Assembly (NCBI GenBank): GCA_010015585.1
Contig: ML975157.1
Reading direction: 5' to 3' (one strand)
DNA from: Eremomyces bilateralis CBS 781.70
Taxonomy: Eukaryota
Length of the DNA stretch: 64,000 nt
Shown in pieces: positions 14,605 to 28,361 of the stretch (within the stretch, counting starts at the first letter, position 1; each line of letters opens with the position of its first letter). A model generated the notes under the pieces. That model saw only the letters and a program-made list of their open reading frames with translations. It was not told the DNA's origin and made no database searches. A program made the position numbers and the translations under genes.

Positions 14605-16811
14605 TCAGTGGAATTTCGCCGCGACGACCCCGTAACGGACGCCATCGACCTTCAACTCAAAGGTCAAACCAGCGCTTTCAATCCGCATATCGAGCGTGAA
14701 ATCCAGATTATCAAATTCCACGCCTTTAGTCGTAGTCAGTCGCGTGAACAGGGACCGTGGGACGGCGTTGAGGTCTGTCCGCAGGGTGCAGACGGTGGTC
14801 AACTCCTTGTGGTACGCGTCCGGCGCGTCGTCGTCGTTGCAGCCGATGAGCTCATCCTCGACGATGAGGGATTGGCCGGGGCGGAAATTGCGAGTGTAGT
14901 GGAAGGAGATGGGGTTATGCTCTGACACTTGCTGATCCTATGGCTGAATGAGCACTTGATTCCCCAGGCTGAAATGAATGAGTATACCTTGGCAATGTGC
15001 CATTGCATCCTGTCACTGACCATCCACCGCTCCCACAGCGGACTCCAGTATCGATCTTCCATTGGATGCCTCGTGGCATCGAAAACTGTCGCGTAACTCG
15101 TCCCATAATGCCATCTGCTTCTTCTAGAAATCACCATACTCCCTTCCAACCCCCTCAGCACCGCCCCCCGAACAACCGCCGTCCACGCATACATCGGGTG
15201 CATGACCTCGATGGCGCTCGAGGAATCCGTACAGGCGGCATGCGTGGGTTTCTCCGTGTACGGCGGTGGAGGTGTGGCGTTGAAATTGGCCTTCATACAT
15301 CGATAGAGATAATTTGACTGCCCAAAGCCACCAACTAGCACAATGCCGGAGACGACACCCCCTTTCCCCCTGATACTGCTCACCTGTCCCTCCACGAGCT
15401 CCACCACCTCCTTCACCACGGGCTCGAAAATCTCTTTGATTTGGGAGGGCGACATGGTCATGAACCCGTCCATGACCCCTGCGTCTTCATCGTCGGGCAA
15501 TCCCGGGAACGGGATGTTGACTTCCTGGTGCTCTTCTTCGCTGTAGGTCCGTTTGACGAATTCGTCGAAGTACTTGAGGCCCATGTTCCAGGTCTTGGGC
15601 TTCTTTTCCCGCATGCGACTGTAGTGCTCTTCGCCGATGCGCTGCTTCACATGCTCTTCAAACCTATAATTAAGGAATGCAGATCCACAGAGTCCACCAT
15701 TGCCGACTGCTGATTCTTCAACTCGTAGCGGATTAAGCTGGGTGATCTGATAGGCTATTAGGTCGACAGTCCCACCCCCTATCACAAAGTCAACTCAACA
15801 TCCACCGCAGACAAGATGCCGCGTAGTAGCAGCAAATCTGAGGCAAGGTTTACTTACCAGCGTCACAAACGATGAAGTTGTCGCCAATACTGAGATGATT
15901 TGGCTGGATCGCTTTCAGCGTATACACCGCCGCCGCCTCGGGCTCCGAAATCAACTTCAAATCATGCCGACTCCCCATCCCAGCTCTTTCTGCCGCTGAT
16001 AGTGTGCCTGCTTTCGCTGCATCCGACCAGACTGCCGGCACCGTCAACACGAACTCGACCTTCGTCCGCGCCATGAAGCTCTCGCCGTAGCGCATGGTCA
16101 ACGTTTCGACCGTGTGCTTGTAGATCTGGGTGAGATAGTCCGACACGGCATCGCCAACGGTCCGCTCGTATTTCCGCAGCTGTGCGGCTGTCTCCAAGGG
16201 CGAGACGAAGTGCGGGAGCTTCTGGTTGTGGTCGAGAAACAGCTTGATGCAGCGGAGGCGCGTTTCCTCAGGCTTGAATTGGAAGCCCCATTTGATGCCT
16301 TGTGGGCGAGGTGGTTCGGTACCATCATCATTCAGTGATAGCGGTGTGTCTGGGGCGTCTAGGAGGTCATAGTATCCAATCTCCGTCGGCACTTTGTCCG
16401 ATGTGATTCCGTTCCCTCCAGGCCATCTGCAAGGTAGCGACTTAGATTTTTGACTCAATAAGTTTGCATGAATGATTACCTACGTTTTTATTATGTCAAT
16501 TTCATCCGGACACCCGCTATACACGGCGGCCACCCTACCTCGTATCGGCGGTCAGAAGAGGGGACGCAGATCATTTGGGCGCGCGATCGGACCAGCACTC
16601 ACGCAGAATAAGTCGTGCCGAAATCAACCCCCACAATCAATCGATTCTCTTTCTGACTCTGATAAGCCAGATCTTGATCAGCAAGTGGGGAAGGGGACCG
16701 CGGTGCCGTCATCAACGTCGGTGCCGTATCAGCGGCGATAATGGTTCCCATGGATTGGTGAAGGGTTCCCAAGCCGTAGCTCGAGGATCGTTTGGGGATC
16801 TCAATCGGCAT
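14605..16811 (-). CDS. Atypical Hsp70-family ATPase (HSPA12-like), multi-exon
   Basis: Motifs VGVDFGTTYS, LTVPAVWSD, ISEPEAAA, DAGGGTVDL and VLVGGFGQS lie across canonical introns. Confidence 0.92.
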
Positions 16812-17636: not shown

Positions 17637-19419
17637 TCAATCATGGAAGACGATTCTTGGACCCTGATAGTGCTTCCGGGCATAACAGAACCAATTCACC
17701 GTTCCAAAAAACGCTGCAATCCCTAAGATGACAACGTTGTAATCTATTCTGTTAGATAGATCTTCGTGGTGGGTGCTGCGCTGGACTTACTCATGGATTC
17801 TGCGGTGACCGGTACAAACGCCGGAAACAGGAAAAATATGCACAATATCGAAGGCATGCAAACAGCCCAGACGTTGATTATCCATCCAGCCCAGTTCGGC
17901 AAGCCGAATGCTCGGTTCCTCGGCAGGTACGTCGTGGATCTTCTCTGATACAGAACCAATGCCGTTGGCATGATGAAGGATAGCAACTGGAGTGTCACGC
18001 ATGAAGACACAAGAGCATTGAAAGCTGGATGCGAAAGTCAGCACAAATGCGGTTCCATTCGTCCCGGGAAACTCGGCTTACCAGTGTCCGATGCGAGAAT
18101 GAGCAGCCCACAGGCAGCAAGAACCCCCCAAACGACGAGGATGGACGATACCGGGACCTCGAGGGTAGGATGGATCTGACGAAACAGTCCCGAAAAGACG
18201 AGTGCATTGTCCCGCGCCAACGCCCAAGTGATTCTCGATGCAGTTTGAATCACTGCATTTAGAACGAAAAAGGTCATGATGACACCGGCAATCAGCAGGC
18301 CAACAGCTCCGGCGTCTGAGCGCAGTCCAACGCGGTTGATCTCGAAGGGCAGGTAACTAGAGACAATATGGTCAACGCATATCCGCCTTGGAGTGTGTGG
18401 CAGCCTTACCCTTCAATGGCAAGAACCTCGTCAAAATCAGATATACTATACAGTATCGCGATGCCAAAGGTGAAAGCGGTGATGAAGCCGATACCAATGG
18501 CGCTGACGCCTGCTAAGGGAACAGAAGTCCGGGGGTTGGGAGCCTCCTCAGCCATATGTAGTGCAGCATCCAGCCCAGCGAAAATAAAGGATGTCGTTAG
18601 GAGTGCAGTGAGGAAGCATACACCATCAGGCCAACCAGTACTGTTCGAGAAGGTCGTCCATACAAATGTATGTGAGGCTTTCGGCGACGAGCGAATGAAT
18701 AACCCCAGAGTCGAGATAATGAACATGATGATGGTCGTTGCAACTAAACAAAGGGGCCAGGTTAGTCTTTTAAAAGGTTGCGGGTCAGGAAAGCGCTCAC
18801 ATCCAATGTCATGGGTTCTCGGCAGCTTCTTCAGCGCCAGCACGTTGTAAAGCACGACTATGAAACCAAATGATTCATAGATCAAGAAGGCATGCCATTT
18901 CTGCAGCACAAACTCCGGGTGGTAATATGTTACTATAGCCGGGATCTGCTGGCTCGGGATAACGATGATCGCAGCGCCGATGGCTATCCATGAAAGGTTC
19001 GCGAGAATCCCACAGGTGTACGAGAGACCGCGATTGAACCGTTTCGGCGCCAGGATCGAGACGAAGTGGTACTGGCCTCCCGCAGTGGGATAGACACTGG
19101 CGAGCTCGCCCATGCTCAGGGCGATGGCCATGTAGGCACTGGCAGTGATCATCATACCGTAGAGGAGCGTTGCAGGGCCGCCTTGGATCAGTGCGATTTG
19201 AGAGCTGGCGGACAGACCAGCCCAGCTGTTGCAGATGTTGAAGCATAGAGAGATCATGGTCACGGCACCGATGCTCTTCTTCATCTGGCCCTGGCCACCA
19301 GCCATCGTCGTCTGCACAATATCCCCGGAGGCATTGCTGGTGGTTGGTCCGGCGGCGTCATTGTTCTTCTCAATTTGGCCGGATTCTGCAGGGACATTAG
19401 TGTGGGAACTTGATGCCAT
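17637..19419 (-). CDS. Amino acid/choline (ACT family, HNM1-like) permease, 5 exons
   Basis: Motifs FNICNSW, ELASVYPTAGGQYH, GLDAALHMAEE, ASRITWALARD and terminal YARKHYQGP; the frame stays open across four GT-AG introns. Confidence 0.92.
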
Positions 19420-19670
19420 AGATAACGGATACTGACCCAACGAAGAAAACTCAATATGCGTGTTGGACCCCATGGTTCTGGAAGAGATTTGATATCCCGA
19501 GAATCAAACTGTACAAAAGGATGTTCAAGGAGGATCAAATACAATTTGCAAGTTCCCATAGAGGTACCGCTTTTATACATATGTAGCCTCTCGGGAACGA
19601 AAGTGAATATCCCTTCCACTGGTTGGACTGATAGAGCGAAGGCTATTCAATTTCGTCCGCCCGGGGGGCA

Positions 19671-19690
19671 CTTATCAAGTCTTATCAAGT
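19671..19690. promoter_or_regulatory. Tandem GATA sites, (CTTATCAAGT)x2, candidate AreA/Nit2 binding sites
   Basis: Exact 10-bp direct repeat, each copy containing GATAAG on the minus strand, in the divergent permease/oxidase promoter. Confidence 0.5.
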
Positions 19691-19979
19691 GTAGTTGGGC
19701 GTTCGCAATCGAACAAGATACGTCGACAGTGGACTTGCTCAGAAGACGGCTCCCGAAGCGAGTCAAGTCTGCGCTACAGCCCAAGGGGAAGATACTGAGG
19801 TAATATCCGCCTGGGCCTTCAGCCAATCCAGCCAGTGAAGCTTCAGCGATGTCCCGGGAACCGTCCAGTCAACGGGCCCATACCCCTCACAATGCGGGGA
19901 ATTGGGCGATCCCGGACTGGAGAGTGCGAGTTAGTTATAAAGGAATCATGGAAACTACATCGTCAGTCAGTCTAGCTGT

Positions 19980-20068
19980 CACCGCGGCTAATTCGATACG
20001 CTAGGTAGGGGTTGCTAGACCCTGTACGATACCACGCGTCGATTAATGCGCTAGCACACACCGCGGCT
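19980..20068. promoter_or_regulatory. Two CACCGCGGCT motifs, candidate Zn2Cys6 binding sites
   Basis: Copies at 19980-19989 and 20059-20068; a third copy is at 24200. Confidence 0.55.
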
Positions 20069-20253
20069 CACTAGCGGGTAGATAACCCCATCAGGGCAGA
20101 TCAGCTACGACTAAGCGTCGACCCCTGCATGCCGAAAATGCGGAGAAGGACTTCATGAACCATCGGATACGGGATAACGTCAGTTATCTAATTAATTTGT
20201 TCGCTGCCACGGATGGCCGCTGGCGGCTTGGGCGTATAAGACCGACGCTCCTC

Positions 20254-21846
20254 ATGCTCCGTTCGGGAAAGACATTGATTCGCACTTCTCTGTCGAACCG
20301 ACGAGCCGTCATAACACCCTTCTCATCCGGACGCAAACCCAGACTTCTCACAATGGTTGCAGCCGCTGAATCCGTCGACGTTCTAGTGGTGGGCGCCGGT
20401 TTGTCCGGTCTCCGAGCCGCCGTCGATGTTCATCGCGCTGGACTTTCGGTCGTCGTGCTCGAAGCACGGGACCGCGTCGGCGGCAAGACACTGAGCGTCG
20501 CCGCCTCGCATCTAGGTGGGAAGGTCGACCTCGGGGCTGCCTGGATCAACGACACCAACCAGAGTGAGATGTACAAACTCGCTCGCGAATTCGGCTTCGA
20601 CCTCGTCGAACAACGCTCCTCCGGGTTCAATCTGACCAAGGGATTGGACGGAAACCTGGTTAAGTTTCCGTTTAACTCGTCGGGCCCGGCGTCACCGCAA
20701 GATGAGGCTGCCCGGGATGCCTTTTACGGAGCACTGGTGGAACACGTCTCTGTGGCGAATCATGAGAGTCCGCATTTGTGCCCGGACGCACTGAAATTGG
20801 ACTCGATGACCTTTGAAGAATTCGCCAGGGCGGAATCGAAGAGTGAGGTCGGTGTCAATGTCGCAAATAGGATGTCAGCCGCGCTTCTCGGTGTGGATGC
20901 CGAAGAAGTGAGTGCATTATTTATGGTGGATTATATCCAAAGTGGAACCGGTCTTGAAAATATGTCATCGGATCTGAAGGATGGAGGACAGTACCTGCGG
21001 AACCGACAAGGTAAGATAATATTCTCCCCCGTTTTCTTCGGATACCAAAGCTAATTCTGCGAAGGGAACCAGGCATTCTCTGCCCGCATGGCAGCCAAGC
21101 TCCCTCAGAACTCCCTCCAGACATCGACAGCTGTGTCCAAAATCACGCAGTCGGGGTACAATATCTGTGAGGTTACAACAACCTCGGGATCAACCTATTA
21201 CGCAAAAACCGTCATCGTTTCGGTGCCCACCTGCGTTCTGCCCTCTATCACATTTGATCCACCTCTACCACCGGCCCGGATGTCTCTTTCTCAGAACACA
21301 CAATTGGGCTATTACGCCAAGGCAATTTTCATCTTTGATCGTCCCTGGTGGCGTGAAGCTGGTCTGAGTGGAATCATGGAGTCCGACGAAGGCCCGATAA
21401 GCTTTTCACGAGACAGCTGTGTTGAGGCGGATGGCCAGTATAGCATCACCTGCTTTATCGTTGGCGATCCTGGAAGGCGATGGTCGAAATGGTCTGCGGC
21501 CGAGCGCCGAAGACGAGTAGCGGAACAGTTCGATGCCCACTTCGGGCAGGCCGCAAGGGATGTAGGAGTGACGGTCCCGGCGGCGGTCAACATTATTGAA
21601 AAGGAATGGATCAAAGATCCTTGGGCCTGTGGAGCGCCGTCCGCGGTGATGATGCCGGGCACCTTGACGGGAGATGCAGGCAAATCCATTCGAGAGCCGT
21701 TGAGGAATGTGCATTTCGTCGGGACGGAGACAGCACTGGTATGGAAAGGATATATGGAGGGAGCTGTTCGATCTGGCATAAGGGGAGCACAAGAAGTAAT
21801 CCAGAAGCTGTCGAGTCGGACCCTGGAAAGGGCAAAGTTGTCCTAG
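20254..21846 (+). CDS. Flavin amine oxidase (APAO/AnFAO-like), 2 exons; alternative start at 20353
   Basis: Motifs VVGAGLSGL, LEARDRVGGK, DLGAAWIN and HFVGTETA..WKGYMEGAVRSG; intron 21011-21064. Confidence 0.95.
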
Positions 21847-21880
21847 TATGTCGGGTATATTGGAGTGACCCAAGATAGTG

Positions 21881-23606
21881 TTATAACATTGGAATCCAGA
21901 ATCCTTTCTTTTCCATTAAGTACAAACCGTATGGTCCAAATGCTTGTGCACAATCCGTCTCCCAAAGCAGCTCCAGTACGTTGCAAATTGCAAAAACATG
22001 TTTCATGCGGTATCTGGACGCCCTCAAGCTTCCAACCAACTCGCAGCGCTCCGTAATGTTGGTCATGCACGATCCAGCCATGACGAGAGGCCACAGCATA
22101 ATGGTTTGCCATCGAGATGGACCTAGGGAGTGCGAAATCTCGATTATTGCATCAATGTGCGATTGAATCGCGTGCCGAGTCTCTGGATCAGAGATTAGTG
22201 AGCCCGCAAGCGCCGCTGCAAGATAAATACGCAAGCCGTATCGAAAAGCCTCGGCAGCCAATCCTGCCTCCTCGTAGTCGGCAGGATCGTCATTTGGAAA
22301 TGGTGTTGGGAGCACCCAAGAGTCGATCCGGTTCTCTAGGCTTTCATAAATCCGCACCGAATCCAGGGATGGTGATGCAACTCGGGCTTCCTCCTCCGCC
22401 AATCGTCTAGCAGCTAGCAGCGTAACTTGAGGGATCAGCTCAAACAGTCCATGACAGTCACCGAACATGGTGCCAAATGTCGAATACGAGCTGAGATTGC
22501 TCAGACATGTGACAAAGGAATCATAATGAACGGCACACCCTGATCCAGTTCCATGAGGCTTGCAGGAGTTGGTTATCAGAATGTAAGCGTAGAGCTCTAG
22601 ACACAGGCCTAGTGAGGCAGTATTGTTGCTGGATCCAAGATGGCCATGGTTATGTAAGTGTGCCAAAAGCGGGTGGATTAGTTCCCGACTTGCACGCAGG
22701 TGTTGAAAGATTGTGCCTTTAATGTCTCCAGATATAAGCTACGCATATAATTAGGGCGATACTGAAGAATTTTCAGATGGGACCAACCTCGTAGTGGCAC
22801 AGCACTATCAAGACCAGAAGCAAGCTCAACGTCTTCTGAAAGTCGTCCGAGCCCAGGCTGCCCAATTCGGATCGCAAGCCGCGGACAACGACTGAATAAT
22901 GCTGCCATGTTGCGGTTTGGATCCGAACATCCGAATCCCTTTGGAAGGCCAGATGTGTTCCACTGAGGGCGAGCACGCTATGCATGAGCAAATCGTCCGT
23001 ATAGGCGAGCGGCACAATGTGCGTGACAAAGGGGTTCTTCTGAACTGGGGCTGTCGCCAACATCGGCCCCGTCTGAACCAAGTAATGGCTAAGCAACATG
23101 CTAGAGTCCGGGGTAAGGATGCAAGCTCGTCCAAATCCGTTAGTCAAACCTGGCGGAAGCATTGGGGGCGTATTGGTGGGTATCAGTTCGCCTCCTCCAG
23201 AAATTACATCCCTTAATGTGCTTTCGACAGGAACCTCGCGTTGCTGAAGCGGCCGGTCCGAGCAAGATGTCGACTTCTCGGGCTGGTCGTGAGATGCGCT
23301 GCCTGCTACCGGCAACGGCCACTGGCAGTTTTCATGATTCCGCCGACAACCAGCGCAACGCGGTTTCGTCTCATCGCATTTCTTCTTCCTCCGACGACAC
23401 GTAAAGCAGCCCGTCTTAACCCGGGGATAGTTTGGTCGCAGGAGCGGCCGGCTGATTAGACGCGGTGTTGAACTGGCGTGGGTAAGCCGCACGGTTTCGG
23501 TTTTGTCACGTCTGCACAGATCGACGCGTGGAGGTGGAGCGGCCGCAGGCGCGGGGTCGATGTCGAAATGAACGAAGATTGTGCTCGTATCGGAATCCTC
23601 AAGCAT
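21881..23606 (-). CDS. Zn(II)2Cys6 transcription factor with a Fungal_trans_2-type C-terminal domain
   Basis: KTGCFTCRRRKKKCDETKPRCAGCRRNHENC; LLMHSVLALSG and LWPLVMAGS motifs; intron 22739-22787. The start codon is uncertain. Confidence 0.92.
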
Positions 23607-23857
23607 CGTACAATGGGGTCTGCACGCGGTGGTTTGGGATCAATCAGTGCCCACAGAAGAGTATATGGTCTACATTCCGTGGAAATAGGTGATCGGGCGA
23701 TGGAGAGGTGATAACAAAGAGTTTAAGAGGGGACAAACATAAAGGTCGGCATCGACGGCATGCGTTGAGAAGCACTGGCGCGGGGAAAGGGGAATCCCAG
23801 TGGTGACAGCGAATGAAATGGCATGTGGAGATCCACACTCTAACTTTAGTGTGTGTC

Positions 23858-23932
23858 CTAACTAACTAGTTAGTTAAGTTAACTTAATTAGTTAACTAAC
23901 TTAGTTAGTGAACTTTAAGTTAACTAAGTTAG
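23858..23932. repeat. AT-rich array of overlapping palindromes built from TAAC/GTTA units
   Basis: Perfect palindromes TAACTAACTAGTTAGTTA (23859-23876), TTAAGTTAACTTAA (23874-23887) and TTAGTTAACTAA (23888-23899). Confidence 0.85.
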
Positions 23933-24199
23933 CTTATGGAGGGTTGGTTAAGTGCCAAAATAAAAGCATCTCGAGAGTTGATCTAAAAGAAACTTACGAG
24001 TGGCGTCTCCATGTCGCAGCGATATCCATAGCCCACCATAGGTACAGATCCCGTATCCGTCTCTGCGTATCTGCATTGGGTTGTAGTGCCTTGCATTGCC
24101 ATTTGCCAGCACGTCGCCACGTCCCGGTAGCAGGGATTCGGGCGGCTAATCCGGACCCAGGACCATGGTATGGTACAGTCGACGGCTTGATTTACATCA

Positions 24200-24319
24200 C
24201 ACCGCGGCTAGATATACGACCTCCCTCTAGCAGACAACTCCTCTCGACCTCCGCGCTACAAAAGGGTTTGTATTACTTCATGTTTTGTTATTGATCTGGC
24301 AGTCGTCTTGCCGCGCTAC
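24200..24319. promoter_or_regulatory. CACCGCGGCTA motif plus two CCGCGCTAC variants
   Basis: CACCGCGGCTA at 24200-24210; CCGCGCTAC at 24251-24259 and 24311-24319. Confidence 0.5.
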
Positions 24320-24599
24320 GGTCTAGTGCAACAAGTCAGTGATGCCCCCTGGGGCGTTGTTGGAAGCCCGGCCTGGACGGCCACCGCTCTCCCCTGGCGT
24401 GGAGATTTCAAAACTGGATCCTCACGGATGCTGAAATTAAGTAGGTAGGTAGGCCATGCTCTTCAGGCGCCTGTGGCCTTTACCTTTTCTTTTCTCGACC
24501 CTGCCATCTTTCTCTGCACCCCTCTGCTATCCCCGCTGCGCCTTCCCCTACGCACTTCAGTCCGAACATTACACCTAAGTCCGTATCTTGCTTTGCAAT

Positions 24600-26642
24600 A
24601 TGTCTCCTAGGATACCTCCACCAGACATCACCTTCGTCGACTCTCCCGCATTGCCGGATCCGCAGTGGTACTCCCACGCCGCCTCCATAAACGGAGCGGG
24701 CCGCCTAATCTTCACCTCCGGCCAGGTCGGCCAGCACAAAGATGGAAGCTTCCCACTCAGCTTCGGCGATCAAGTGAAGCAGGCTGTCGCCAACCTCGCC
24801 GATGTATTACGGGCGGCGGGCGCAGCGCCTCGCGACGTTGTCCAACTGCGCTTCTATTGCGTCGACTGGTCCATGGATATCGGAGGCGATCTGGTCACTC
24901 CTGTGCTCGCTCTGCTCACCGAGACCTACGGGGTAACGTATCGCCCACTCACGACTCTCGTCCCAGTTCCGAAGTTGGCGTTCCCGGAAGCCAAATTCGA
25001 GATCGAGGCCGTGGCAAGCGTGGGCGGGTTATCGCGGCCATGGGTGTTGGCAGACGGTCATCTTCCCAACGGAGCTCAAACTCTCGTTGCCAACCGATTC
25101 CCTGTGCCTGCGGCAGAGGTGGATGTTCTGGTGGTCGGGGGAGGTTTCTCGGGTCTGATGGCAGCATATGAGTGTCAGCAAGCGGGTCTAAAGACTGTCT
25201 TGCTCGAGGCTCGGCATCGCGTTGGCGGTCGAAGCTGCTCGTTGGCTCTGAAGAGTGGCCCTGGCGTCATTGAGCTGGGCGCCACCTGGATCAACCGCAC
25301 GACTCAGCCAGCCGTCTACGCTCTCACCGAGAAGTTCGGTCTGGAGACAGCCGAGCAGTACACCACGGGTCAGGAAATCTTCCAAGGATTAGACGGATGC
25401 GTAACGAAAGTTCCAGATCCCCAGTCGCGTCGAATAAGCGTATGTGAATCCTACCCATAGCCTTGTCAATTCATTCACCGTCTTGCGCAGCTAACAGTAT
25501 TCATCATAGGACTCAGACCCAGAGACCACCGAGAAAGTACAGAAGCTCTTCCATCTGATTGAAGAGGCGGCCAACCAGCAGGACATTCGAAAATGGGACA
25601 GTTTCCCAGAGCACGAAGACGTCACTGTGGCAGAATGGGTTACGCAAAAGCGACTGTACGATAATGCCACCGTTCGAGCACAATGCCAACATTTGACGAG
25701 TGCCATTGTCGGACGCGAGCCGCACGAAACCGGAGCGCAATACTTCCTGGACTATATCAAGTCCGGCTGTGGCCTCACCAGCATCATTAGCGAGGGTGAA
25801 TTCGGCGCGCAGTCCCTGAAAGTCAAAAAAGGTACGAGTAGTGAGTGAATCGGCCATGTGGAACGCTCTTACAATGACCCATAGGAACATCGTCCATCGC
25901 AATGGCTCTTGCTTCCGAAATTGGCCCTGGCAATGTCTTCGTCCATAGCCCCATCAACACCATCGTCCAGTACAGAAAAGGAGCCACCGTCACCACCACC
26001 GGCGGCCAAACGTTCACCGCGAAGAAAGTGATCCTCGCCAATCCGACCAACACCTACAGCAACATCCAGTTCTCACCCCCGCTGCCCGCCGCAAAGCGAA
26101 CCCTCGTCTCGCGCACGAAGCCCGGCGTATATGCCAAAATGGTAATTTCTTACACCTCCCCGTGGTGGCGAACCGCCGGACTGGTCGGCAAGTTCTCCTC
26201 CCTGCTGGGGCCTATCTGCTTCAGCTGGGATACTAGCAGTGTCCCCGATCAGCAATATAGCCTTGCCTTCTTCATCGCCGGCGAGCGCGCCGCCAAATGG
26301 CATGCGCTTAATGCGCTCCGTCGTGAAGAAGCGGTGATCGAGCATCTCGCGACCCTGGTTGGACCCGAGCTAGCTGATAAGGTGAGAGATGTGCTCGAGG
26401 TGAATGAGGTAGAGTGGACCAAGGAGGAGTATATTGGAGGGGCACCGACGAGCACAATTGGCCCGGGACTGCTCCGTAAGTACGGCGCGGAGTTGAGGAC
26501 ACCGTTTAGAGATTTGCATTTCGCTGGTGGGGAACTGGCATTTGAATGGAAAGGATATCTGGAAGGTGCCGTTACGTCTGGGAAGCGAGCTGCCAGTGAG
26601 GTGATTGACGTATTGAAGAGCGGCGATGGAAGTAAACTATAG
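24600..26642 (+). CDS. Rid (YjgF/YER057c/UK114) domain fused to a flavin amine oxidase, with C-terminal PTS1 (SKL), 3 exons
   Basis: N-terminal YSHA..IFTSGQVG..QAVANL..FEIEAVA, then VVGGGFSGL..LEARHRVGGR..ELGATWIN..WKGYLEGAVTSG; introns 25440-25509 and 25832-25884; ends GSKL-stop. Confidence 0.95.
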
Positions 26643-27275
26643 GTTTGGTTAAGTCTTAAAAAGGTTGCTTGATATTGGCTTTCAAGTTATTATCTTCCTT
26701 CTTGACAATCTCAGACGGTTTTCATGGCATGATACATACTCTGTGGATCTACCAATCACCGTGCCGCCTTCATCGGGCATTCAACATACGTATTTGCTCA
26801 ATCTAGAAAATCATCAGAGGACTGTTGGTGAGTAAAGGGGAATTGGAATTTCTACAAAACAGCTCTCAATAACAGGAATTCATGGGCCTGGTCTATACAT
26901 ATGATTTCGGAGGTGATACTCGACACCTCAACTGCTCAGGTGACGACCATACCACCACGTGTAGAAGGACCTTGTCTTGGTCAATTCAAGTCAGATACGT
27001 TGAATGTATTTCCCGCGCGCTGTAAACAAATCCGAGTAAACGAATTCGCTTTAAACGAGTTCCTTCGCCCCAATGTGGTCCGGCTCGCTGTATGACGCGG
27101 TCAGTCCTGGTATATCGCCTGACATGACAGAATGTCAAAAGTCAAACAACATCCAGAACATGCTGATTCTTCGCACATTGACTAATCGGCACAGCATTGA
27201 AATAGGCCGTGACAACTCAAGTAGTGCGGGGTTCTCGATAAGAGCTCGAGGGGCAAGTCGGAATGGGACCAAAAG

Positions 27276-28361
27276 TCAAGGATTCGATTGCGGTGGTATT
27301 TCAGCTTCATCCGCCTCGTCATCATCATCACCTTGCACGTCCATCACACGCTCCCCAATTTTCTTAAGGGTTCTTTTGCTGAACGTACGAACACCGCGCC
27401 AGATGGCCTAGGTGGGAAGTCAGACGACGTCAACCAGTTGGTCCAGAAGACTCACATATAAAACTGTACCAATGCCGACCATCACAGCAATCCAGCTAAG
27501 ATTAGCAAGCCTCTGCCGCCCTGTGGTACCTCGCGCACGACCACCCCCAACGCGGATATTGAACCAGTTCCAAGGCGAGCTGAGAAACACCTTGAGGAAT
27601 CCGAGCAGGCCCAAAGAGGCCATGCCTTTGAGGAAATGGTCTGTCCAAGTGAATGGCTCCTCCACTTCGTGCCAATCGGGTTCTGTGCGGCTAATTTGAG
27701 ACAAAGTTCCCAACGGGTCAACGTAAAGGTTAATGATTGGATCCGCAATGAAGCCCAATAAGAACACGGCCAGCAGCAGGATCGCAATGGTGAGCGCTAC
27801 TTGAGCGACTGTGATCGTCAGACCATGCCAGAGAGATGCACTGTAGCATAGATACTAACCAGCACTGCTGATAATCCTCGCCCACGACATCCGCTGCAGG
27901 TGGTACCGAAACCCACACGTTGGACACTGCCAATAATTCCTCCTACCATATGCAGGGTCCACATGCCGCCACTTCTGCAAGCAATTCTCATGAACATATT
28001 TCGACGAGCCTTTGCATTTGCAGGGGCGCAGGAGACGCCCTTCCTCAGAGTCGTAGGTTACCGACGGTCCTGCTTGAAAGATGCCGGGCAGCGACTCCGA
28101 CGGAGGATGGTATGTGGGATGGACGGTATCTAAACATATCCGACACGTCCTGGGTTTCCACTGGCGTTGCTTGGGGGGGATATTCGTCTTTGGTGAAGCC
28201 GAAGCTTCCGGTGGTGCACGGTTGCCGCTGTCCGCCGGTGAGCTGGAGGATGGACCGGGTGCTCCAGAAGCTCGATGACGGGAGTCGTTGTTAGCAGGTC
28301 GGGGGGTGTCATCTAACCACTCCCAGCTGCCAAGATCCCTTCCAAATGCAGATGCGCTCAT
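27276..28361 (-). CDS. RING-CH (RINGv/MARCH-type) membrane E3 ubiquitin ligase, 3 exons
   Basis: CRIC..PCKCKGSSKYVHENCLQKW..CPTC followed by hydrophobic helices and an acidic tail. Confidence 0.9.

What the first reader, a model, noticed from the sequence alone, without database searches (positions are those of the whole stretch)
17637..26642. Self-contained amine-catabolism cluster: permease, two paralogous amine oxidases and a Zn2Cys6 regulator
Seen: four intact genes in two divergent pairs, sitting among housekeeping genes. Known from recall: oxidases with these motifs (DLGAAWINDxNQS, DYIxSxTGL, DGGQY) include Exophiala spinifera APAO and Aspergillus niger AnFAO, which deaminate fumonisin or aminopolyol substrates. 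ACT-family permeases import amines such as choline and GABA. Inference: this is an inducible uptake-and-oxidation module for an unknown amine or amino-lipid toxin. It has its own regulator but no linked aldehyde dehydrogenase or esterase in this window.
Basis: partly seen in the sequence, partly recalled or inferred. Interest (0 to 1): 0.75.

Follow-up and report, generated by a model that had tools for sequence, protein, structure and literature searches.

The report
Conserved fungal amine-oxidase cluster, Rid-fused
A fungus keeps an amine transporter, a regulator and two distantly related amine-oxidising enzymes side by side, a grouping that recurs in other moulds, and one enzyme carries an extra 'Rid' domain from a branch of unknown function that may finish the reaction by splitting the imine product.

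Summary
The four genes are real, intact and arranged as described. Linkage is conserved: by consecutive accessions, permease plus both oxidases adjoin in Rhizodiscina, Thozetella and Talaromyces, and regulator–oxidase–permease in the Trichoderma harzianum complex. (1) The oxidases belong to two old, separate clades (38% identical); only AO1 has the quoted AnFAO-type motifs. (2) AO2 is an N-terminal Rid/YjgF fusion ending in a peroxisomal SKL. Its Rid domain lacks RidA's carboxylate-binding Arg105 (no Arg in 32 of 32 aligned rows), yet is as conserved as the oxidase domain. (3) Both oxidases have Ala-Pro where MAO-B has Cys397-Tyr398, like cyclohexylamine oxidase, which suggests non-covalent FAD and ketone products and would explain the missing aldehyde dehydrogenase. 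One bacterial Pro-type oxidase clade also has an Arg-less Rid directly downstream (13 of 13 loci), usually with a permease. The two divergent promoters share two CGG-containing 12-mers. Best reading: a self-regulated amine uptake and oxidation module split between cytosol and peroxisome; substrate, induction and Rid activity are untested. Fumonisin-type detoxification is possible but not favoured. New variant of a known kind.

The parts
17637..19473 (-). APC/ACT-type amino acid-choline permease, 523 aa; exons 19473-19437, 19385-18801, 18743-18410, 18356-18082, 18024-17791, 17743-17637
   Evidence: Model stop-free; all 5 introns joined in X3 contigs; PF13520; TIGR00907 E 6e-105 but below its curated cut-off; closest relatives annotated 'amino acid' or 'choline' transporter
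19474..20352 (.). Divergent promoter, permease/AO1 (879 bp)
   Evidence: Between the two start codons
19980..19989 (+). CACCGCGGCT, copy 1 (candidate Zn2Cys6 site, inferred)
20057..20068 (+). CACACCGCGGCT, 12-mer shared with the other promoter
20164..20175 (+). CGGATACGGGAT (CGG-N3-CGG), 12-mer shared with the other promoter
20353..21846 (+). AO1: unfused flavin amine oxidase of the AnFAO-like type, 479 aa; exons 20353-21010, 21065-21846; Ala410-Pro411 at MAO-B Cys397-Tyr398; ends AKLS, no PTS1
   Evidence: PF01593; identical to database protein P0042 over the queried exon and of the same length; residue mapping; intron not seen spliced in X3
21881..23606 (-). Zn2Cys6 regulator with Fungal_trans_2 (PF11951) domain, 558 aa; intron 22787-22739; zinc cluster at about 23414-23322
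   Evidence: PF00172 and PF11951; model; intron joined in X3
23607..24599 (.). Divergent promoter, regulator/AO2 (993 bp)
24048..24059 (-). CGGATACGGGAT, second copy
24198..24209 (+). CACACCGCGGCT, second copy
24600..26642 (+). AO2: Rid/YjgF-amine oxidase fusion, 639 aa; exons 24600-25439, 25510-25831, 25885-26642; Ala574-Pro575 at MAO-B Cys397-Tyr398
   Evidence: PF01042 plus PF01593; same as P0001; both introns joined in X3; AlphaFold model pLDDT 86.5, pTM 0.84; Foldseek TM 0.82-0.94 by target length to the MAO, putrescine oxidase and cyclohexylamine oxidase chains listed
24669..25019 (+). Rid domain (aa 24-140); Thr118 (24951-24953) stands at TdcF Arg105; Glu136 keeps Glu120
26631..26639 (+). 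C-terminal SKL, type 1 peroxisomal targeting signal (prediction)
   Evidence: Sequence; strict PTS1 in 8 of 30 Rid-fused relatives against 1 of 119 unfused AO1-type

Best explanation
A self-regulated module for taking up and oxidatively deaminating an amine, most likely for its nitrogen or to disarm it. Shown: four intact genes, conserved linkage, two old oxidase clades, Rid fusion, SKL, active-site residues, shared promoter words. Inferred: (1) the permease imports the amine; (2) the Zn2Cys6 protein activates both divergent promoters through the shared CGG words; (3) AO1 (cytosol) and AO2 (peroxisome) oxidise C-N bonds with non-covalently bound FAD to an imine plus H2O2, on different amines or on successive steps; (4) the preferred substrate is a primary amine on a secondary carbon, so the product is a ketone plus ammonia and no aldehyde dehydrogenase is needed (about 0.5); (5) the Arg-less Rid domain binds and helps hydrolyse the carboxylate-free imine (about 0.3). 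The confidence below is for steps 1-3.
For: Linkage by consecutive accessions: Rhizodiscina AO2 ..754, one unseen gene, AO1 ..756, permease ..757 (same order as the window); Thozetella permease/AO1/AO2 ..743/744/745; Talaromyces stipitatus ..859/860/861; Penicillium canariense AO2 ..464, AO1-type ..466. Regulator-AO2-permease adjoin in 8 assemblies of the Trichoderma harzianum complex (7 by accession, 1 by locus tag); regulator-AO1 in Clonostachys byssicola; permease-AO2 within 2 accessions or locus tags in Cladobotryum, T. pleuroticola, two Fonsecaea, Emergomyces, Blastomyces. A linked permease is shown for 10 of the 29 other Rid-fused hits; the rest were not looked up. Promoters: 1 of 1000 shuffles gives a shared 10-mer in 3 copies, 4 of 2000 give two shared 12-mers, and 2 of 2278 real tile pairs of the window show both. 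Pro at the Tyr398 position in 117 of 120 AO1-type and 39 of 40 AO2-type hits, with Lys296, Gln206 and Tyr435 kept; the same Gly-Ala-Pro stands in cyclohexylamine oxidases 6lqc and 8i6i. AnFAO, AO1's characterised look-alike, turns an amine into an imine that hydrolyses to a ketone (PMC9415688, passages). Rid domain 58% and oxidase domain 56% mean identity over 29 relatives.
Against: AO1 is absent from the Trichoderma and Fonsecaea arrangements and the regulator does not lie between the oxidases in Thozetella or Talaromyces, so the four-gene form is not universal. No induction or co-expression data; in the one spliced run AO1's intron was not joined. The promoter words could not be checked in other species, and other genomic copies of the 11-mer show no amine theme (28 of 30 examined). 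GATA sites are not enriched (5 against 3.0 expected, 49 of 300 shuffles). Pro at this site is a correlation with two enzyme types, not a substrate rule; cyclohexylamine oxidase is only about 30% identical.
Confidence: 0.75

Rival explanations
1. Detoxification of sphingoid-like aminopolyol toxins (fumonisin or AAL type) or of long-chain bases, as with AnFAO and the Exophiala oxidase.
For: AO1 shares AnFAO's start, length class and N-terminal motifs (first 400 of 1395 letters read by eye); such substrates are amines on a secondary carbon, which fits the Pro signature; an Exophiala spinifera permease (PV08_08796) falls in the same supported clade as the window's permease (96/95).
Against: No carboxylesterase nearby or on the contig, although the Exophiala enzyme needs side chains removed first (PMC9415688); no Aspergillus niger or E. 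spinifera oxidase among the 120 best AO1 hits listed; AO2 lacks the motifs; AnFAO's own affinity is modest (KM 194.7 uM for FB2), so fumonisin may not be its natural substrate; whether PV08_08796 is the fumonisin-cluster permease was not determined.
Confidence: 0.2
2. General scavenging of unbranched mono- or diamines (aldehyde products), with aldehyde dehydrogenases supplied from elsewhere in the genome; the Rid domain only scaffolds or oligomerises the enzyme.
For: Top structural matches include a bacterial MAO solved with putrescine, putrescine oxidase and MAO-B; at least 12 aldehyde dehydrogenase matches exist elsewhere in the genome (12 of 36 candidates scored); Salmonella Rid7, which lacks the Arg, did not hydrolyse imino acids (PMC4433059); secreted-type AO2 relatives have lost the Rid domain (7 rows with a hydrophobic N-terminus).
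Against: The Tyr398 cage residue of MAO-type enzymes is Pro here; among 16 plasmid loci the two oxidases with Tyr and an annotated aldehyde dehydrogenase neighbour have no Rid, whereas 3 of 4 Pro-type oxidases do; the Rid7 assay used only carboxylate-bearing imines.
Confidence: 0.25
3. Chance neighbourhood or a recent tandem duplication, with no common regulation.
For: Genes of these families are numerous (12 PF01593 matches and 22 permease matches in the genome).
Against: AO1 and AO2 sit in separate clades (SH-aLRT 100, quick tree), each closer to its ortholog in other fungi (63-74% over the queried exons) than to the other (38%); the best named hits of permease, AO1 and AO2 all come from the same two other genomes.
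Confidence: 0.04

Closest known systems
[quoted passage not shown]
   Same: Unfused flavin amine oxidase of about 464 aa, needs no added FAD, imine hydrolysing to a ketone (PMC9415688 passages); the visible N-terminal part has the same GGKTL and DLGAAW-N-D-T-N-Q motifs as AO1 (supplement of PMC10746191, by eye).
   Different: Not among AO1's 120 best listed hits; full-length identity not measured; no cluster context given in the passages read; AO2 is a different clade with a Rid domain and SKL.
Exophiala spinifera aminopolyol amine oxidase (APAO) and fumonisin catabolic genes
   Same: FAD amine oxidase giving a 2-keto product; a linked permease and an N-terminal YjgF-like extension are recalled from patents, not seen in any call.
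Bacterial cyclohexylamine oxidases (6lqc, 8i6i, 4i58)
   Same: Best sequence hits of AO2 in the PDB (E 2e-56); Gly-Ala-Pro in place of MAO-B Cys397-Tyr398; oxidise primary amines on cycloalkane carbons to ketones (PMC6262902, PMC4853734, passages).
   Different: Only about 30% identical; no Rid fusion; bacterial.
RidA and the Rid1-7 subfamilies (Niehaus et al. 2015, PMC4433059)
   Same: Rid fold, Glu120 kept; Rid genes cluster with FAD amine oxidases in bacteria.
   Different: The clustering described there is of Arg-bearing RidA/Rid3; this domain lacks Arg105 like Rid4-7, whose function that paper calls unknown; here it is fused, eukaryotic and carries Thr.
Bacterial oxidase-Rid-APC permease operons (Sinorhizobium, Arthrobacter, Pseudomonas plasmids; found here)
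   Same: Same three functions together; Pro-type oxidase; Arg-less Rid.
   Different: Rid is a separate gene with Trp at the Arg site, only about 31% identical to the fungal domain; the permease gave no BLAST hit to the fungal one; uncharacterised.
Yeast GABA regulon (Uga3 activator, Uga4 ACT permease)
   Same: Zn2Cys6 activator plus ACT-type permease for a poor nitrogen source (recalled; search listing only).
   Different: Uses a transaminase, genes unlinked, no oxidase.

Membership tests
Flavin amine oxidases (PF01593, MAO fold) | Rossmann GxGxxG, full PF01593 domain, catalytic Lys and re-face Tyr | tested here: met
   Both genes pass Pfam cut-offs; Lys305/Lys472 and Tyr449/Tyr612; Foldseek E about 1e-44
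MAO-A/B type (covalent FAD, two-Tyr cage) | Cys397 and Tyr398 | tested here: not met
   Ala410-Pro411 and Ala574-Pro575
AnFAO/APAO-type fumonisin amine oxidases | N-terminal motifs of AnFAO, in AO1 | tested here: met
   only the first 400 of 1395 letters of the AnFAO gene were shown
AnFAO/APAO-type fumonisin amine oxidases | Same motifs, in AO2 | tested here: not met
   0 of 4 motifs in AO2; DGGQY-type motif in 0 of 40 AO2-type hits; separate clade
AnFAO/APAO-type fumonisin amine oxidases | Orthology by a tree that includes AnFAO and APAO | not testable with these tools
   Neither full sequence was returned by any search
AnFAO/APAO-type fumonisin amine oxidases | Deamination of fumonisin or its backbone | not testable with these tools
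   Needs enzyme assay
Exophiala-type fumonisin catabolic route | Linked carboxylesterase | tested here: not met
Cyclohexylamine oxidase type | Pro at the Tyr398 position, non-covalent FAD signature | tested here: met
Cyclohexylamine oxidase type | Activity on cycloalkyl or sec-alkyl amines | not testable with these tools
   Needs enzyme assay
RidA imine deaminases | Arg105 (binds the substrate carboxylate; essential) | tested here: not met
   Thr118 aligns to TdcF Arg105; Thr 30, Val 1, Ser 1 of 32 rows; TIGR00004 29 bits against a cut-off of 106
Rid superfamily (PF01042) | Rid fold and Glu120 | tested here: met
   PF01042 60 bits; Glu136 in 32 of 32; model pLDDT 76-93 over the domain; Atlas TM 0.82
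Rid superfamily (PF01042) | Homotrimer with inter-subunit pocket | not tested
ACT (amino acid/choline transporter) family | TIGR00907 curated score | tested here: inconclusive
   352 bits, E 6e-105, cut-off 598, best of 3 permease models
Zn2Cys6 regulators with Fungal_trans_2 | Six-cysteine cluster plus PF11951 | tested here: met
Co-regulated catabolic gene cluster | Conserved linkage in other genomes | tested here: met
   By accession order only
Co-regulated catabolic gene cluster | Co-induction that depends on the regulator | not testable with these tools
   One contig-level run, no levels or strand

The most novel reading that the evidence does not exclude
Arg-less Rid domains paired with Pro-type flavin amine oxidases are hydrolases (or sinks) for imines that have no carboxylate. 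RidA's Arg105 holds the carboxylate of imino acids, so it is dispensable when the imine comes from a plain amine. Fungi reached this pairing by fusion (Thr at the Arg site, sent to the peroxisome) and bacteria by operon (Trp at the Arg site). This would give a first activity to the Rid4-7-like branch and define a eukaryotic pathway for alpha-branched amines.
Probability: 0.3. Interest if true: 0.8.

Novelty: new variant of a known kind. Interest (0 to 1): 0.58.

Why it matters
It points to the natural setting of the AnFAO-like oxidases, which are known mainly from mycotoxin clean-up and whose own substrate is unclear. It also hands over a single-chain test object for an open question: what Rid proteins without the catalytic arginine do. 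A fusion that keeps such a domain at 58% identity across four fungal classes, and an independent operon pairing in bacteria, predict a substrate class (carboxylate-free imines) that the published Rid7 assay did not use. The enzymes may also be useful biocatalysts for sec-alkyl amines.

Tried and rejected
Recent tandem duplication: rejected. DNA-level synteny: the metagenome scan gave 1 locus of 1.5 kb with no neighbours; no look-alike windows in the scan's own index. Run search: no RNA holder listed on record; X3 was laid anyway and shows splice joints; depths were not used to rank genes. A wider regulon behind CGGATACGGGA (32 genomic copies, 8 for the reversed control): 28 of the 30 other copies were examined; many lie inside long ORFs and the Pfam hits around them are housekeeping genes, so no regulon is claimed. 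The 13 other loci fetched for ACACCGCGGCT were not annotated. GATA enrichment: not significant. The closest bacterial relatives of the fungal Rid domain are not next to amine oxidases (0 of 5 viewed of 573 records; one has an unspecified NAD(P)/FAD oxidoreductase about 4.7 kb away). Long frames spanning oxidase and Rid in L077 and L078 are a different frame from the oxidase, not fusions. Horizontal transfer: the Thozetella permease groups with the two Dothideomycete ones (98/95) and monophyly of 8 Sordariomycete rows has p-AU 0.018, but the group was named after seeing a tree and hidden paralogy is not excluded, so it is only a hint. The careful oxidase tree did not finish; the quick tree is cited (79 of 160 hits used). 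ESM Atlas gave only generic RidA clusters at 0.80. Literature: searches found no paper describing this cluster or the Rid-fused clade; the library holds only Creative Commons papers and bioRxiv, and Garnham et al. 2020 (the AnFAO paper) and the Duvick patents were not read; I recall that they mention Rid/YjgF extensions on some oxidases.


Full report
OBSERVATION. The window is part of a 26.9 Mb fungal assembly (G000:C9:372001-436000). Database proteins that match my models at 100% over the queried exons are labelled Eremomyces bilateralis (P0001, P0042, P0345). Four stop-free models with GT-AG introns were built: permease (minus, 523 aa), AO1 (plus, 479 aa), regulator (minus, 558 aa), AO2 (plus, 639 aa). 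Contigs of run X3, which the tool only guesses to be RNA, carry joints at all 5 permease introns, the regulator intron and both AO2 introns; DNA runs X1 and X2 show none. This moved the permease start to 19473. The AO1 intron is not among the joints: one contig runs without a gap from 19675 to 22738, across AO1 and 680 bp upstream of its start. Contigs show neither strand nor level, so this is either intron retention or read-through from the convergent regulator gene. Flanking genes with Pfam hits are housekeeping genes. No aldehyde dehydrogenase or carboxylesterase was found within the window plus 10 kb each side (positive controls rang), and none of 44 esterase matches is on this contig.

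TWO KINDS OF OXIDASE. AO1 and AO2 are 38% identical over 481 columns. In a quick maximum-likelihood tree of 79 of the 160 hits they fall into two groups separated with SH-aLRT 100, and in both groups the window's protein is next to Rhizodiscina among named rows (99 and 98; the careful search did not finish). The AnFAO gene in the supplement of PMC10746191 (1395 letters, the first 400 shown, read by eye) begins directly with the Rossmann motif and has AO1's GGKTL and DLGAAW motifs, so AO1 is AnFAO-like; no A. niger or E. spinifera oxidase is among its 120 best listed hits of 971, so close orthology is not shown. AO2 carries an N-terminal Rid/YjgF domain (PF01042, aa 24-140). The fusion is present in 29 of the 40 other hits, from Dothideomycetes, Sordariomycetes, Eurotiomycetes and Leotiomycetes (class labels from my own knowledge). 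One AO1-type protein is also Rid-fused (P0136), and 7 AO2-type proteins have a hydrophobic N-terminus instead. AO2 ends in SKL; a strict PTS1 ends 8 of 30 fused proteins and 1 of 119 unfused AO1-type proteins, a wider pattern 19 of 30 and 3 of 119 (rows are related, so the p-values overstate). AO1 ends in AKLS, one residue past a PTS1.

ACTIVE SITES. Mapped on MAO-B through, both enzymes keep Lys296, Gln206, Phe343 and Tyr435, have Trp for Tyr60 and Phe for Tyr326, and have Ala-Pro for Cys397-Tyr398 (Pro in 117 of 120 and 39 of 40 hits). Loss of the Cys implies non-covalent FAD. The same Gly-Ala-Pro is in the cyclohexylamine oxidases that are AO2's best PDB sequence hits; those enzymes oxidise primary amines on cycloalkane carbons (PMC6262902, PMC4853734, passages). 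AnFAO likewise converts an amine to an imine that hydrolyses to a ketone (PMC9415688, passages). I infer ketone-forming chemistry, which would explain why no aldehyde dehydrogenase is linked. The two clades differ at fixed pocket-side positions (Arg335 against Trp502, Asn203 against Ser371, Thr348 against Ala515), which suggests different substrates. The AlphaFold model of AO2 (pLDDT 86.5) has a well-folded Rid domain, a flexible linker (aa 150-170) and an MAO fold.

THE RID DOMAIN. Thr118 aligns with Arg105 of E. coli TdcF. Of 32 aligned rows 30 have Thr, 1 Val, 1 Ser, none Arg; Glu136 (Glu120) is invariant. The domain is as conserved as the oxidase (58% against 56% over 29 relatives), so it is under selection. 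PMC4433059 (section 5 whole, other passages) states that this Arg binds substrate carboxylates and is essential for imino-acid hydrolysis, that Rid4-7 lack it and have no known function, and that Rid7 was inactive on amino-acid-derived imines. An imine made from a plain amine has no carboxylate. Two findings fit a role on such imines. First, in the same genome an Arg-bearing RidA lies about 3 kb from an L-amino-acid-oxidase-like gene. Second, in bacteria: of 16 plasmid loci viewed (one per organism, out of 66 and 37 records), 4 oxidases have Pro, and 3 of these have an adjacent Rid with Trp at the Arg site and an APC permease; 0 of the 12 others have a Rid (Fisher p 0.007, but the three are kin). 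A genome scan with two of them returned 13 loci (one is the query's own, two are copies on one plasmid): 13 of 13 have Pro and a Trp-type Rid directly downstream, 11 of 13 a permease. This is one clade, and its Rid is only about 31% identical to the fungal domain, so the pairing probably arose at least twice. Against: the five closest bacterial Rid hits viewed have no amine oxidase beside them, one Pro-type oxidase has an SRPBCC gene instead, and many AO1-type enzymes work without a Rid.

CONSERVED LINKAGE. The best named hits for permease, AO1 and AO2 come from the same two genomes, with equal contig lengths. Accessions are consecutive or one apart for all 4 non-self oxidase pairs looked up and for all permease and regulator pairs looked up: Rhizodiscina has the window's order with one unseen gene in the regulator's place; Thozetella and Talaromyces have permease-AO1-AO2; 8 assemblies of the T. 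harzianum complex have regulator-AO2-permease (regulator 40% identical over 283 aa, rank 9 of 338); Clonostachys has AO1-regulator. Locus tags put permease and AO2 within two genes in two Fonsecaea, Emergomyces and Blastomyces. Four Penicillium gene models merge a related permease with PF11951, and one Exophiala model merges a Rid with a permease, which implies adjacency. The stable core is thus permease plus Rid-AO2 plus regulator; AO1 is a variable member. These pairs were chosen for matching contig lengths, and no DNA was seen.

REGULATION. The two divergent promoters share CACACCGCGGCT (with a third 10-base copy) and CGGATACGGGAT. Any shared 10-mer in 3 copies arose in 1 of 1000 shuffles; two shared 12-mers in 4 of 2000; among 2278 real tile pairs 15 had two 12-mers, 46 had a triple 10-mer and 2 had both. 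Both words hold CGG triplets, the usual Zn2Cys6 half-site (established knowledge). The 10-mer occurs 45 times in the genome, 3 of them here. Binding is inferred, not shown, and conservation in other species could not be checked.

MECHANISM AND VERDICT. Most likely (0.75) an amine enters through the permease, the linked regulator switches on both promoters, and AO1 in the cytosol and AO2 in the peroxisome deaminate it or its relatives, giving ammonia, H2O2 and a carbonyl; ketone products are about even odds and imine hydrolysis by the Rid domain about 0.3. Fumonisin-type detoxification (0.2) and general scavenging of unbranched amines (0.25) describe alternative substrates and overlap with the main reading; chance (0.04) is the only true opposite. 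Clusters of regulator, permease and oxidase are a familiar fungal layout, and earlier unchecked notes of this scan report similar ones, so the layout is not surprising. What is distinctive is the pairing of two oxidase clades and the conserved Arg-less Rid fusion with its bacterial parallel. Seven literature searches found no description, but the original AnFAO paper and the Exophiala patents are outside the library and, as I recall, mention such extensions; supplements of PMC4433059, which may list Rid fusions, were not read. Verdict: real, conserved, new variant of a known kind; interest 0.58.

Noticed in passing
window 19675-22738: In run X3 one contig covers AO1 unspliced and extends 680 bp upstream of its start; possible antisense read-through from the regulator gene, or intron retention (a retained intron would stop AO1 at 21054).
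   Followed up: partly
G000:C17:517168-521755 (L093, L004): An Arg-bearing RidA gene lies divergently about 3 kb from a 675-aa L-amino-acid-oxidase-like gene (best PDB hits LAAO and L-lysine oxidase); both have hydrophobic N-termini by eye.
   Followed up: partly
L065, L066, L068-L080, L090: Bacterial operon of a Pro-type flavin amine oxidase, a Trp-type Rid and an APC permease in rhizobia, Arthrobacter, Mycobacterium-group, Microbacterium, Poseidonocella and Pseudomonas; apparently uncharacterised.
   Followed up: partly
window 23845-23940: AT-rich, partly palindromic patch of TAAC/GTTA words in the regulator/AO2 promoter; 77-94% similar stretches at 8 other places in the genome.
   Followed up: partly
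P0033-P0039: AO2-type oxidases of Verticillium, Colletotrichum and Stachybotrys have a signal-peptide-like N-terminus in place of the Rid domain and no PTS1; two separate positions in the quick tree.
   Followed up: partly
P0010 and P0018: Fusarium oxysporum and Stemphylium AO2 proteins are sisters (SH-aLRT 100) although the fungi are in different classes; possible transfer.
   Followed up: no
window 14800-16600: Spliced minus-strand gene next to the permease with only weak HSP70 hits (E 0.001-0.006).
   Followed up: no
window 24238-27500: The X3 contig for AO2 continues into the convergent RINGv gene, so their 3' ends overlap or abut.
   Followed up: no
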